64,000 nt of DNA, taken from the NCBI GenBank assembly GCA_951406725.2, contig OX597820.1, positions 80,910,001-80,974,000 of the forward strand, given 5' to 3'. The position numbers are program-made. This DNA comes from Octopus vulgaris (taxonomy: Eukaryota). How positions within the stretch are numbered: the first letter of the stretch is position 1; the number at the start of each line of letters is the position of its first letter. Shown here piece after piece: positions 1 through 48,000 of this stretch.

Positions 1-1066
1 GAAAACCTTAAGCTACCAAAATATTTTTGATTTGTGATGTTATTAAATCTAATATAGTGTGTATACTGTTATAATATCTTAATTAGTTTCTAAACAACCT
101 GAAATTCTACGCGATGAGATCAAAAAGGCAATAAAAGAAAAGGATAAATCAGCTTTAGAGAGTTTGATAAAAACTTTTGAAAATATAAGACTACCTGAAC
201 TCGGTTTGGATCTCAGTCGAGCAAGAGACGTTTTAAGAAATTTAGGTGGTGATTATGAAGGTTAGTTACCTTATAATAACAGTATGCGTATACGTTTGAA
301 AACTAGTTAATTTCTATTTATAAATGAGAATTATAATTTTGACTCATAATATTAAAATCAACTGTAAATATTGATGGATAGAAATTTTCTAAAAGAAAAT
401 AATCAATGAACACCCAAACTATCTTGTACTTTATATCTCTTTATAACTATAGATTCATTTCTAGAACATGTTCTTCCTTACAGTTAATATTTCGAAACTG
501 ACTTTATAATAATTTTCATAAGGAAGAAAACTTTTGTTTATCTAAATAGATGCGTGTTTATCCTGATAACTAGTATTTACTTTTTTTATGTATTAGTTAC
601 TATTAATAGTTTTCATATTTAGTGGTGATATTTAAACCATTTCAATTAATAGGGAACGTTTCTGTGAAATCTCTACGTGAAAAATTGCAAAAGGCGATGA
701 AATCTAAAGATAGACGTTTGCTAGATTCCGTCATAAGAGAAACTGTGGTCGCAGGCATTCCAGAATTAGAAACAGACTTACAACAGGCTAGAAACCTGTC
801 TGATATTCTTTCAGGTGGCAGTGGAGGTCAGCATTTGGATTAGTGTTCTGTTTTATAATCGTATCTTACTGGAACATGTTTATAACATAAATAACAATTA
901 TTATTTTCTCGATATAAAGCAAAATGTCTTTTTAAAACCCTGCTAAGATTTGAACTTAAATTTAATTTTATATCATGTTAACATATTGGTGTTATCTGGC
1001 AATATTGTGCCACATTCTAAACTTTTACATAAAATATACTAAAATAGGTACTTGTTTCAAATTATT

Positions 1067-1131
<65 letters not shown>

Positions 1132-45000: not shown

Positions 45001-48000
45001 TCACACCCAGGGATTAATACCTTGCACCCTCCTTCATTCGATTATTTTAATTCCTGGCTTTTGTTACACCTTCATTTCAGACCAATTTTCCTTTCCTCAG
45101 AATCAATACTGTGCACTTGGGAAACCCAAAATCCACCGAATATCTCCAGAAAATAGTCGGGCACAATTTATTTACTACACTGTCCAACTGTTTCTCATTA
45201 ATCGTGAACAAATTCAAATCATCTCTATAGAGTAAAAGGTTTAGCTTGTCAATACTTCTCCCCGGATCATAGGGTGTCTTTACCTATTGTAACATACGAG
45301 TGACATGAGAACTATAACGAATAGCATGTGATACACACTGTCTTCCTGAAATAATTCTCGATTTATGCTAACTTTTCCAATGGGCAGCTACTTGGTGTTC
45401 CATTGTCTCATACTGCCACAGATTAATACTTTGATCTTAACTGCCACTTTATAGATATCCATGGGGTTTTTTCGCTCTAGCTATGTGGTACCATATCGTA
45501 ATAATCTATCCAGGTCACTCCCGAATTTGTCAGCCTTTCTTATACAGTTCTTTATTACCATTTTGCTAAGGTGACATAATTATTGTTGAACAAGAGGCCT
45601 CAGTGAAAAAATAAAACTTAACGGAACGCAAGTGCGCCAGGCAATGTTTAGTTTCGAATATATAATGTGTTATTCAAATATATCCGGGTTCGTTTGGAAA
45701 TCTTTTATATATATAGAGAGAGAGAGAGATTTAAGGGGCCTTTGAGATAATGTAAGCAATTATTTCAAAATAATAAACTATATTGAAAAGTAACAATGTT
45801 AGAATGTTGGAAATAATACAATTCTGTTTTTGTTGTTGTTTTTTTCATTTATGTTCTGAGCTTAAGTCCAAGCGGTATTAATTTTGATTTTAGTCACGCT
45901 GAGATTGATAACATAAGCTTTTGTACTTTTCTAATAAATCACTTAAATATTTTTGTTTTGTTTGTAGCTCCAAAATCTCCATCTCTCTTGCGTGATCAAC
46001 TAGACCATGCCGCTAAACTGAAAGATATTGTTGGTCTTGAACGTGCTATTGCTGAAGCTGAAGCAGCCAAGTCTCCAGAATTAAGCAATAAAATAAAACA
46101 AGCCAGAGACCTTCTCGATTCTTTGGATGGTGGTGGCAGATGTAAGTAATTTAAGTTATTTCTATTACCTTCGTCGCCAGTTTTATAATTATACAAACCT
46201 ATATAAACACACAGATATACACGCTTGCCTACACCCGCACAGACACACGCATATATATGTATGATTATATGAAAATTACTTCCATATAATCAATATTTAT
46301 ATTTTATGTGATTCTCCCAGTTCCTGAAACAAAGAAGTAACACAGAAAATACCTCCTCCTCCGTTACAAACTCCTCATTGTGGTTAATGAAGAGAAATTA
46401 ATATTTTGAATAACAGCAAAAGTAGCCGGATATATTGCATTTTCTTGTTAATCACTGCATTTTAGCAGATTAAATTTAACTTTGGTTTCTTTTAGTTTTT
46501 ATGAAATTTATCAATTTGCTTTCATCGACCTGTATTCTGCATTCCTAGTGGAAAGATACGAATATACCAAAAGCTTGAATAAAAAATCATTCTTTTGATT
46601 TTTATTCACATCACAAAATGATACCGTAAAGTTTTGTAGAAACATATTTCCATTTTAAAGTCCATTAATATATATGCAGGGGAAGCGCATGTTGCTGAAG
46701 CAATACCGGACAATTAGCCAAAAAGTTGGCGAGGGCATATCATGCCACTTGAATTTCTATGCCCCAAATTTGAAAATCTATACCTTGTTTGGTCAATAAT
46801 CCTAGTTCTGTGTAGTTCATATAACTCCATATAATACTGCTACATATATTTATCTGCCAACTGCATAACGTTACGGATACTAAACATAAGTATCAGTCTA
46901 GGTTGGCTGCAGAAGTCTGTGAATGAAAACAATAATGATTATGATTTCTAACATACTCACAAGCACACAAATTTTCGGAAAAGCAACAGATGCTTAAACT
47001 GACCTATGAAGGATGCAAGATAAAGCTGACCGTGAGAGCATGTAGACTCAGAATAATGAGGGAAAAACTAAATACTCTGAGAAATTGATCTAACATGCTA
47101 CATTCTTCCCGCTAATGCCTTCACGAATAAATCTATTAACTCGACATGCGAAATTCCATTTAGAAATGACAATATCAATCAACAACTGTCTATTTATTTA
47201 TATGTAAGCCTGTATATGTTTATTTATATATGTTTCTCCAGTTTCTTATTTCACTTTATTTCATTGAACATTTTTAGCAAGAAGCTTGTCACCCGAGCAG
47301 GTTGGTACTTTCCTTGACCAAATAAACGCATCAATAATTCATAAGGACAAACCTAAGTTGGAGAAAGCAATTGCTGCAGCTGAACCTTACAGACATCCTC
47401 AGCTGGAACCTCAAATTCAGAAAGCCAGACCATTGTTGGATGCTTTAGATATTAAAGATAGTAAGAAAATTTCAATTTCAAATAAATTTAAACGTTTTTT
47501 ATTTGTTATGATCTTTATCATCAGCTAATTAACCAGGGCAACAGTTGCTCTAGACTCTTGATTCGTTATTATTAACGATTGATCCACATTTCTTTTATCA
47601 ACAATTGTTCCACATTTCTTCGTGATAGACAATTAAACGAAAACATAAACTAAATTCTGTAAATTAAGTAAATTCTGTCGCAGGTTATAGGCTCAGTTAA
47701 GCTATATAATACTTTTTGTATATGAATTGACTAGGAATCTAAGTATCTATATAATCATGATCCATCTTGTCTTCGATTTCCCTGAGAGTTAGTCACATTT
47801 ACAATGAGACTGCAATCTCAAAGATGCAAACCTATTCACAAACGGAATTACATCTGATGTAATGTTGAAATACGGTTAAGCATATATATATAACTCTCCA
47901 ACAGACATATCGTATATTGGTTTCAAATTTTGACACAAGGCCAGCTATTTGGAGGGAGTGGGTAAGTCGATTACTTCGACCCCAGTATTCATCTGGTACT

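What the first reader, a model, noticed from the sequence alone, without database searches (positions are those of the whole stretch)
87..47460. Array of 26 symmetric one-exon-one-repeat modules encoding an unrecognised ~58-aa three-helix repeat
Seen: 26 exons over 47 kb, all phase 1-1 and stop-free, 19 of them exactly 174 nt. Each encodes one repeat (SPxxLR..L..A...KD...L..AI.EC..AGxPEL..D...AR..L..LGGGxG). The introns share no obvious similarity while the exons keep the motif, which implies old duplications under purifying selection. The array starts at the window edge and probably continues upstream. Inference: three amphipathic helices plus a Gly-rich hinge give a beads-on-a-string giant protein. 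Because every module is frame-symmetric, any subset could be spliced in frame, giving a length-tunable ruler/spring or a combinatorial isoform system. I do not recognise the repeat as a named Pfam family.
Basis: partly seen in the sequence, partly recalled or inferred. Interest (0 to 1): 0.9.

Follow-up and report, generated by a model that had tools for sequence, protein, structure and literature searches.

The report
Octopus KY-like gene's helical repeat array
This is the real, repeat-rich back half of an octopus gene of the KY/hillarin cytoskeletal family, in which a small unnamed three-helix module has been copied into dozens of one-exon units that can all be spliced in frame.

Summary
Between 87 and 47460 the + strand carries 25 intact exons, all AG/GT-bounded and phase 1-1. 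Twenty are exactly 174 nt. There is also one degenerate but still open exon (35681-35860) and two broken relics.

Each exon encodes one ~57-aa module predicted to form three helices, ending in a Gly-rich linker. The modules alternate between two types (A/B), so the unit that was duplicated is an exon pair.

The gene is already predicted, but uncharacterised, in Octopus bimaculoides (LOC106876157). A record labelled Argonauta hians LOC115214248 has the same C-terminal exon and one-to-one orthologues of eight window exons. That record starts with a KY/hillarin-type head: a transglutaminase-like core plus three KY Ig-like domains. The catalytic Cys and His of that core are replaced.

The same module occurs once or twice in KY/hillarin-like proteins of bivalves, a chiton and a bryozoan. 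It also occurs in repeat arrays in unnamed proteins I take, from their sequences, to be protist, including myosin tails. The local Pfam copy and PDB have no match.

I read the array as a long, segmented tether or scaffold in a cytoskeletal pseudo-enzyme. Combinatorial splicing is possible in frame, and database models differ in exon content, but no transcript data could be examined.

The parts
87..260 (+). repeat exon 1 (type A), 174 nt, phase 1-1
   Evidence: 100% identical to P0003 residues 364-420
653..826 (+). repeat exon 2 (type B), 174 nt
1280..1453 (+). repeat exon 3 (A), 174 nt
1967..2143 (+). repeat exon 4 (B), 177 nt
2612..2785 (+). repeat exon 5 (A), 174 nt
3165..3338 (+). repeat exon 6 (B), 174 nt
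3880..4053 (+). repeat exon 7 (A), 174 nt; orthologue in P0271 (72%)
4379..4555 (+). repeat exon 8 (B), 177 nt; orthologue in P0271 (65%)
5358..5531 (+). repeat exon 9 (A), 174 nt; in none of the database models
7514..7687 (+). repeat exon 10 (B), 174 nt; in P0002 but not P0003
12500..12673 (+). repeat exon 11 (A), 174 nt
12925..13095 (+). repeat exon 12 (B), 171 nt
13443..13610 (+). repeat exon 13 (A), 168 nt
14517..14618 (+). decayed B-type repeat relic with an in-frame stop
   Evidence: nhmmer E 0.0016; translation and 16.5 bits with X at the stops
19018..19191 (+). repeat exon 14 (B), 174 nt; in no long model, only in an ORF-like record, P0005
21640..21813 (+). repeat exon 15 (A), 174 nt; orthologue in P0271 (71%)
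27188..27361 (+). repeat exon 16 (A), 174 nt; in no model
28000..28173 (+). repeat exon 17 (B), 174 nt; part of the separate model LOC128248363 (P0004)
29873..30046 (+). repeat exon 18 (A), 174 nt; in P0004
31222..31395 (+). repeat exon 19 (B), 174 nt; in P0004
33748..33921 (+). repeat exon 20 (B, divergent), 174 nt; in no model
   Evidence: about 0 bits; donor GAG|GTTAGC kept
36878..36937 (+). truncated repeat relic (first helix only)
40550..40723 (+). repeat exon 21 (B), 174 nt; orthologue in P0271 (79%)
42712..42885 (+). repeat exon 22 (A), 174 nt; orthologue in P0271 (74%)
43834..44007 (+). repeat exon 23 (B), 174 nt; orthologue in P0271 (81%)
45968..46141 (+). repeat exon 24 (A), 174 nt; orthologue in P0271 (67%)
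47278..47460 (+). repeat exon 25 (divergent last full repeat), 183 nt; orthologue in P0271 (78%)
48484..48774 (+). exon 26: phase-1 acceptor, phase-0 donor; starts with a weak half-repeat, then non-repeat C-terminal sequence
   Evidence: 97% identical to P0002/P0003 and 82% to P0271
49904..50095 (+). exon 27, non-repeat C-terminal region, phase 0-0
51600..51878 (+). exon 28, Ser/Thr-rich tail. The open frame ends with a stop at 51876-51878, as the P0271 tail does; P0002/P0003 splice out earlier, near 51731

Best explanation
The window holds the 3' part of an octopus gene of the KY (kyphoscoliosis peptidase)/hillarin family.

The head of the protein lies upstream of the window. It consists of a transglutaminase-like core that has lost its catalytic Cys and His, plus three KY Ig-like domains and a charged linker.

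The window encodes the rest. It holds an array of at least 25 (probably at least 44 in the whole locus) autonomous ~57-aa three-helix modules. Each module is on its own phase 1-1 exon and ends in a Gly-rich hinge. Three non-repeat exons follow, with a stop near 51878.

The array grew by tandem duplication of a two-exon A/B unit, from a module that related lophotrochozoan KY/hillarin-like proteins carry once or twice. The copies are old, keep individual orthologues across octopod genera, and are born and lost (three relics).

Inferred mechanism: the array is a long, segmented, flexible tether or multivalent scaffold. It spaces the non-catalytic KY head from the C-terminal tail inside the cytoskeleton, by analogy with KY at the muscle Z-disc and hillarin at septin/actin structures. 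My rough estimate of its reach is tens to about 200 nm; no call measured this. Because every repeat exon is symmetric, the length can be altered by exon skipping without breaking the frame.
For: Shown:
- Exon anatomy and phases.
- Codon-position signature of protein-level constraint.
- A/B alternation: identity 0.44-0.48 at even lags against 0.35-0.38 at odd lags in exons 1-15; 11 of 10000 permutations reach the observed difference.
- Three helices predicted (pLDDT 80.5); linkers below pLDDT 50 and pTM 0.34 for the three-module protein P0004.
- Per-exon identity of 87-100% to O. bimaculoides models XP_014780069.1 and A0A0L8GL38 for 18 of 25 exons.
- The C-terminal exon finds a 1720-aa record labelled Argonauta hians LOC115214248 isoform X1. 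It has Transglut_core and three Ig-like_KY stretches, 10 repeats, and the same tail. Eight of its 10 repeats are collinear best matches to window exons 7, 8, 15 and 21-25.
- P0102, from an unnamed source, is 91.5% identical to that head and ends in one repeat.
- The catalytic Cys and His are replaced in the octopod head but present in three fish KY sequences.
- Ten of 117 KY/hillarin-like proteins carry 1-2 modules (E <= 0.01). In the eight of them that are longer than 700 aa the modules lie in the C-terminal third. The seven with a source name are bivalves, a chiton and a bryozoan.
- The profile finds 252 proteins at E <= 1e-3 among 1.84 billion. They include repeat arrays in myosin-head, MyTH4, RUN and EF-hand proteins.
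- Reversed and column-shuffled profiles score at most 3.5 bits, against 54-112 bits for the real profile, on the 13 repeat-array proteins. For the eight weaker KY-like hits the figures are 10-28 bits against at most 0.7.

From papers (passages read): KY is a transglutaminase-like Z-disc protein in a network with filamin C, and no enzymatic activity has been shown (PMC6078408). Drosophila hillarin concentrates at the cleavage furrow and interacts genetically with a septin; C. elegans Ltd-1 localises in an actin-like pattern (PMC3718969).
Against: - The KY head is not in the window. The link rests on one database model from another octopod and on P0102. The O. bimaculoides models that cover the window start inside the array.
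- No expression, localisation or binding data exist for this gene. Two literature searches by its identifiers found 0 papers.
- The function is by analogy with distant relatives: octopod against fish KY is about 25% identical, and the catalytic residues differ.
- Seven of 25 intact exons (9, 14, 16-20) are in none of the long models. They score lower on average against the profile (72.5 against 87.2 bits; my arithmetic, not tested for significance). So the expressed array may be much shorter than the genomic one.
- Constraint looks only moderate in the few close comparisons available: 27 of 261 exon residues differ against 21 of 128 translated-flank residues, from 5 hits of unknown species.
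- Foldseek found no solved relative, so the fold is generic.
Confidence: 0.6

Rival explanations
1. Combinatorial cassette system. Many different subsets of the symmetric exons are spliced in a regulated, tissue-specific way, giving a length-tunable ruler or spring and many isoforms.
For: All 25 exons, plus the degenerate one, are phase 1-1 with lengths divisible by 3. Database models from one locus differ. P0003 holds exons 1-8, 11-13, 15 and 21-25. P0002 jumps from 12 other upstream repeats to exon 4 and includes exon 10. P0004 models exons 17-19 alone. The record labelled Argonauta is called 'isoform X1' and holds only 10 repeats. Seventeen of 25 donors have a pyrimidine at +3 (GAG|GTTAGA type), which from general knowledge I take to be a suboptimal 5' splice site.
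Against: No transcript data were seen. The differences between models come from different pipelines and may be annotation or assembly artefacts. I could not measure whether +3 T donors are unusual in this genome. The exons omitted from models are the more divergent ones, which fits decay as well as regulation.
Confidence: 0.25
2. Multivalent docking array. Each module binds the same partner that the single modules of other KY/hillarin-like proteins and of the myosin tails bind. The array would then be an avidity platform or polymer cross-linker, not a passive spacer.
For: Surface-independent core positions are conserved from octopus to the presumed protist proteins (L11, A14, L23, I27, P36, L38, A45, R46). 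The module recurs in the tails of motor and adaptor proteins, which from general knowledge usually hold cargo-binding parts. Two conserved types, A and B, suggest two specificities.
Against: No partner is known. The conserved residues are mostly those expected to pack three helices. Paralogues are only about 38% identical on average, so the surfaces differ widely.
Confidence: 0.3
3. Largely decaying array. Only about 10-18 repeats are functional and the rest are unused pseudo-exons on their way out.
For: Three relics at different stages of decay. Exons 9, 14 and 16-20 are absent from the long models. Exon 20 and the 35.7-kb copy are degenerate. The record labelled Argonauta has 10 repeats.
Against: All seven omitted exons keep open frames, AG/GT sites and recognisable motifs (E 1.9e-16 to 2.5e-27). 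Synonymous positions among the paralogues are near saturation, so unused copies of similar age should have picked up stops. Exons 17-19 are 95-96% identical to P0004.
Confidence: 0.2
4. The array is a gene of its own, and its fusion to a KY-like head in the record labelled Argonauta is a gene-model artefact that merges neighbouring genes.
For: Both O. bimaculoides models covering the window start inside a repeat and have no head. P0102 ends just after one repeat.
Against: P0102 already joins the head to a bona fide repeat. KY/hillarin-like proteins of seven named lophotrochozoans and three unnamed records also carry the module, so head plus module is an old combination.
Confidence: 0.1

Closest known systems
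KY (kyphoscoliosis peptidase) / hillarin / Ltd-1 family of transglutaminase-like cytoskeletal proteins
   Same: The octopod orthologue model has a Transglut_core domain and three Ig-like_KY stretches. Other lophotrochozoan members carry the same helical module. There is no signal-peptide-like N-terminus in P0271 (read).
   Different: The catalytic Cys and His are replaced, whereas vertebrate KY keeps its putative catalytic residues (PMC6078408). A C-terminal array of tens of modules was seen in none of the other 116 family members examined, which carry 0-2. That search covered only proteins of 468-1490 aa.
Spectrin-repeat rods (spectrin, dystrophin, plakins)
   Same: From general knowledge, these are tandem three-helix units forming long cytoskeletal linkers, as proposed here.
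   Different: No Spectrin Pfam match on the exons or the whole models. The unit is 57 aa rather than about 106 (recalled). The units are separated by Gly-rich linkers of low predicted order rather than continuous helices.
Modular-exon giants with differential splicing (titin PEVK/Ig region, nebulin super-repeats)
   Same: One module per symmetric exon, a super-repeat of more than one module type, and a length that could be set by exon inclusion. The comparison is from general knowledge.
   Different: Unrelated sequence and fold. Differential inclusion is documented for those proteins but not shown here.
Unnamed helical repeat in proteins I take to be protist, including myosin tails (P0011, P0020, P0031, P0088, P0095, P0121, P0138, P0148)
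   Same: The same motif register (R..L..A...D...L..AI..AE.AG.....L..AR..L). Library-wide E-values run from 5.9e-28 to 8e-10. A profile built from them recovers 25 of 25 window exon ORFs and none of the other 904. Composition controls are negative.
   Different: The period is shorter (about 45-50 aa) and there is no Gly-rich hinge. The partner domains differ: myosin head, MyTH4, RUN, EF-hand. The reciprocal test is partly circular, because those repeats were picked by the octopus profile.
Bacterial GA-like / SbsC_C / Endotoxin_C2 three-helix modules (seen in P0064 and P0149)
   Same: Helical repeats hit by the octopus profile.
   Different: Only the last helix aligns (profile positions about 20-55). 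None of these Pfam families matches the octopus exons. I treat the hits as analogous, not as the same family.

Membership tests
KY/hillarin family | Transglutaminase-like core domain (Pfam PF01841) | tested here: met
   Met in the orthologue model P0271 (residues 94-202, E 2.3e-5, above cut-off) and in P0102. It is not in the window itself, which starts inside the array. The link is through the shared C-terminal exon and 8 orthologous repeats.
KY/hillarin family | KY-type Ig-like domains (Pfam PF23265) | tested here: met
   Three stretches in P0271 (E 2.3e-64) and in P0102 (E 1.3e-66). These lie outside the window.
KY as an active peptidase/transglutaminase | Cys-His-Asp catalytic triad | tested here: not met
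   In an alignment with three fish KY sequences, Cys aligns with Lys and His with Asn in P0271 and P0102; Asp is kept. The column assignment of the triad is from my knowledge of the fold, not from a tool.
Spectrin repeat | Match to the Pfam Spectrin profile; unit of about 106 aa (recalled) | tested here: not met
   No such hit on 8 exons or on the whole models P0001-P0004. The unit here is 57 aa.
GA-like three-helix modules (PF22775, PF18449, PF18058) | Match to those Pfam profiles | tested here: not met
   Absent from the exon and model scans. They are present only in the P0064 and P0149 hits.
Unnamed eukaryotic ~45-57-aa helical module (KY/hillarin-like tails, myosin tails) | Shared motif register, significant both ways and not due to composition | tested here: met
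   (hhalign probability 98.7% and 98.6%). Caveat: the comparison sets were selected with the octopus profile.
Alternatively spliced cassette-exon arrays | All cassette exons symmetric and of the same phase | tested here: met
   25 of 25 are phase 1-1 with lengths divisible by 3.
Alternatively spliced cassette-exon arrays | Transcripts with different exon subsets | not testable with these tools
   No RNA data were available. The only evidence is differing database models.
Pfam PF24398 | Unknown to me | tested here: inconclusive
   A precomputed label PF24398.2 is attached to P0002. The local Pfam copy gives no such hit even at E <= 10. No paper mentions the accession.

The most novel reading that the evidence does not exclude
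The 57-aa unit is a member of an ancient, still unnamed pan-eukaryotic three-helix domain family that is shared by protist myosin tails, RUN and EF-hand proteins, and animal KY/hillarin proteins. Octopods have turned it into an array of 40 or more cassette exons. Regulated, weak-donor-dependent exon choice then sets the length and the A/B composition of a cytoskeletal tether, cell type by cell type: a splice-programmable molecular ruler in muscle or neurons.
Probability: 0.15. Interest if true: 0.75.

Novelty: new variant of a known kind. Interest (0 to 1): 0.5.

Why it matters
- It gives an identity (KY/hillarin family) to a large uncharacterised octopus gene.
- It shows a clean natural example of a domain amplified from one or two copies to dozens, as a two-exon unit with full frame symmetry.
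- It points to a widespread helical module that the local Pfam copy does not name. The module links animal cytoskeletal pseudo-enzymes with motor-protein tails from proteins I take to be protist.
- If exon choice proves to be regulated, this would be a tractable system for studying how splice-encoded protein length is set in cephalopod muscle or neurons.

Tried and rejected
- Pfam on 8 exon peptides: nothing above cut-off. Pfam on the C-terminal and neighbouring ORFs: nothing.
- PDB by sequence profile: only designed helical proteins, best E 0.011.
- Foldseek against PDB: the single-module model had no hit below E = 1 and the three-module model no hit below E = 0.1. The fold is generic.
- ESM Atlas: a single exon gave unnamed eukaryotic clusters at 0.90 with recognition below the tool's bar. 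P0002 restricted to named clusters gave nothing.
- Complex prediction with a type-B exon against the adjacent type-A exon, to test whether A and B pack together: 'no answer'. This is not evidence either way.
The label 'protist' for P0011 and similar proteins is my inference from their sequences.
- Gapped global identity of exons against flanks was uninformative in this AT-rich DNA. I replaced it with in-register identity.
- Comparing exons with translated flanks against close relatives yielded only 5 usable hits, too few for a selection test.
- Literature: 0 papers for the gene or protein identifiers and 0 for PF24398. A general hillarin/KY/mollusc search gave nothing relevant.
- Rfam and tRNA scans of the window: 0 hits.
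Each exon was searched alone or as a row of an alignment.
- Unchecked: the closed collections metagenome contigs and viral contigs; genome contigs (prokaryotes only, not used); paper supplements, which might list this protein in proteomes; the sequence upstream of the window.
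Full report
**What is in the sequence.** The window is AT-rich (GC 0.30-0.35 up to 52 kb) and full of microsatellites. I built a profile from the window's own ORFs. It hit 26 of 929 six-frame ORFs, all 26 on the + strand. Twenty-five hits were strong (E 1.3e-9 to 5.8e-32) and one was a fragment. 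A DNA profile recovered the same 25 plus a relic at 14517-14618.

Each of the 25 has an AG acceptor and a GT donor in phase 1-1. Twenty are 174 nt; the others are 177, 177, 171, 168 and 183 nt.

A further open, AG/GT-bounded, phase 1-1 stretch of 180 nt lies at 35681-35860. It keeps the donor GAG|GTTAGC but has lost most of the motif.

Two more copies are broken. The one at 14.5 kb has an in-frame stop, and the one at 36.88 kb is only a first helix.

The array ends in exon 26 (48484-48774). Its acceptor is phase 1, so it accepts any upstream repeat exon, and its donor is phase 0. Two more non-repeat exons follow (49904-50095, and from 51600), and the open frame stops at 51876-51878.

**Old duplications under protein-level constraint.** In-register identity among the twenty 174-nt exons is 0.576 at codon position 2, 0.501 at position 1 and 0.376 at position 3. 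Flanks are 0.43-0.44 within 20 nt of the splice sites (splice signals) and 0.31-0.35 beyond 50 nt. Random intron pieces give 0.27.

The modules are of two kinds. Type A reads ..CE.AGYPEL..DLRKAR..LE.LGGGRG and type B reads ..C[IV]AAG.PELD.DI..AR... They alternate strictly through exons 1-15. Identity is 0.44-0.48 at even lags and 0.35-0.38 at odd lags, and 11 of 10000 permutations reach the observed difference. The duplicated unit was therefore an exon pair.

**Structure.** Exons were handled singly or as alignment rows.

With a 115-row alignment, AlphaFold2 predicts one module as three helices (residues 4-17, 20-33 and 36-53) at mean pLDDT 80.5.

A database three-module protein (P0004, LOC128248363, which equals exons 17-19) gives the same helices. 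Its linkers are below pLDDT 50 and its pTM is 0.34, meaning no fixed arrangement between modules.

Foldseek against PDB found nothing significant for either model. Neither did a sequence profile search of PDB.

**What gene this is.** The profile finds O. bimaculoides 'uncharacterized protein LOC106876157' (XP_014780069.1, 1769 aa) and A0A0L8GL38 (1563 aa). Per-exon identity to the window is 87-100% for the 18 exons these models use. The window is therefore from an octopus at or near that species.

Both models begin inside a repeat. They carry 12 and 6 additional, mutually distinct repeats upstream of window exons 4 and 1. The array thus continues upstream and the locus holds at least 44 distinct repeats. 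That count assumes that the upstream repeats of both models and the one repeat of P0102 belong to this locus.

Searching exon 26 alone found one further protein, labelled by its source Argonauta hians LOC115214248 isoform X1 (P0271, 1720 aa). It has a Transglut_core domain and three Ig-like_KY stretches. These are followed by a K/E-rich linker, 10 repeats and the same C-terminal region. Eight of the 10 repeats are collinear best matches to window exons 7, 8, 15, 21, 22, 23, 24 and 25, at 65-81% identity against 46-61% for the next-best paralogue.

P0102, from an unnamed source, is 91.5% identical to that head and ends with one repeat.

In an alignment with three fish KY sequences, the positions I take to be the catalytic Cys and His are Lys and Asn in the octopod head; Asp is kept.

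**The module elsewhere.** Among 117 KY/hillarin-like proteins returned for P0102, 10 carry one or two modules (E <= 0.01). In the eight that are longer than 700 aa the modules lie in the C-terminal third. The seven with a source name are bivalves, a chiton and a bryozoan. None of the fish KY proteins has it.

Against 1.84 billion representatives the profile finds 252 proteins at E <= 1e-3. Most of the 150 listed are single-exon-sized ORFs. The long ones include:
- pure repeat proteins;
- two proteins with a myosin head, one of them also with MyTH4;
- a RUN-domain protein;
- an EF-hand protein.

Profiles built from these repeats, or from the KY-associated copies, each recover 25 of 25 window exon ORFs and none of the other 904. 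hhalign gives 98.7% and 98.6% probability. This is partly circular, because the sets were chosen with the octopus profile.

Reversed and column-shuffled versions of the profile score at most 3.5 bits where the real one scores 54-112 bits on the repeat-array proteins. For the weaker KY-like hits the real profile scores 10-28 bits and the controls at most 0.7. Composition therefore does not explain the matches.

Two hits with GA_3/SbsC_C/Endotoxin_C2 domains align only to the last helix. I treat them as analogous.

The organisms behind the unnamed hits could not be looked up.

**Function.** This part is inference. The passages I read say that KY is a transglutaminase-like Z-disc protein in a network with filamin C, with no enzymatic activity shown (PMC6078408). 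They also say that Drosophila hillarin sits at the cleavage furrow and interacts genetically with a septin, and that C. elegans Ltd-1 shows an actin-like pattern (PMC3718969).

With an inactivated head and no signal-peptide-like N-terminus (read), I take the octopus protein to be an intracellular scaffold. The module array would serve as a long, hinged tether or multivalent platform.

**Splicing.** Frame symmetry is complete. The database models also differ in content:
- exons 9, 14 and 16-20 are in no long model;
- exon 10 is in one model but not the other;
- exons 17-19 form a separate model;
- the record labelled Argonauta holds only 10 repeats.

Skipping exons 16-20 or 9+10 preserves the A/B alternation. 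Skipping 9 alone, or 14, does not (my reading).

Seventeen of 25 donors have T or C at +3, while the three C-terminal introns and exons 21-25 have A.

None of this shows regulated combinatorial splicing. No RNA data were available, and the omitted exons score lower on average against the profile (72.5 against 87.2 bits), which fits decay as well.

**Limits.** The head is outside the window. Supplements, metagenome contigs and viral contigs were closed. A precomputed Pfam label (PF24398.2) on XP_014780069.1 could not be reproduced or identified. The repeat may therefore already have a Pfam entry that I could not see.

**Verdict.** It is best filed as a lineage-specific expansion within the KY/hillarin family, built from an unnamed but widespread three-helix module. 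The combinatorial-splicing reading remains open.

Noticed in passing
window 54927-58681, minus strand: Remains of an LTR-type retrotransposon. It has RNase H plus an integrase zinc-binding and core domain (54927-56297), reverse transcriptase split over two overlapping ORFs (56695-57174 and 57126-57620), and a gag-like ORF with a weak DUF7041 hit. It lies downstream of the gene and accounts for the GC rise to 0.41 at 52-60 kb.
   Followed up: partly
window 260-47460, the 25 donor sites: The donor consensus is GAG|GTTAGA. The +3 base is T in 15, C in 2, A in 6 and G in 2 of 25. Exons 21-25 and the three C-terminal introns have A at +3. A pyrimidine at +3 is, from general knowledge, a weak 5' splice site. 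I could not test whether it is unusual for this genome.
   Followed up: partly
window 28000-31395 (exons 17-19): NCBI models these three repeat exons as a separate 192-aa gene, LOC128248363. Its start codon lies in what is here the upstream intron. The models of the surrounding gene skip them.
   Followed up: partly
P0002 (XP_014780069.1), database record: It carries a precomputed Pfam label, PF24398.2. The local Pfam copy does not reproduce it even at E <= 10, and no paper mentions the accession. Its meaning is unknown to me.
   Followed up: partly
window 38765-39670, + strand: A run of ORFs inside the 6.6-kb intron between exons 20 and 21 looks to me like a decayed DNA transposon (transposase-like text). 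The only match is a weak HTH_7 hit (E 0.026).
   Followed up: no
window-wide, e.g. 966-1262, 4395-5180, 22515-22946: Very dense (TA)n, (CA)n and related microsatellites in the introns produce long spurious ORFs of the IYIYIY and THTHTH kind on both strands.
   Followed up: no
P0064 and P0149 (hits): These are proteins with long arrays of GA_3/SbsC_C/Endotoxin_C2-type helical repeats, one of them behind RCC1 repeats. They match only the last helix of the octopus profile.
   Followed up: partly
window 53017-53654, + strand: Overlapping ORFs just upstream of the retrotransposon have Cys/His-rich text and no Pfam match.
   Followed up: no
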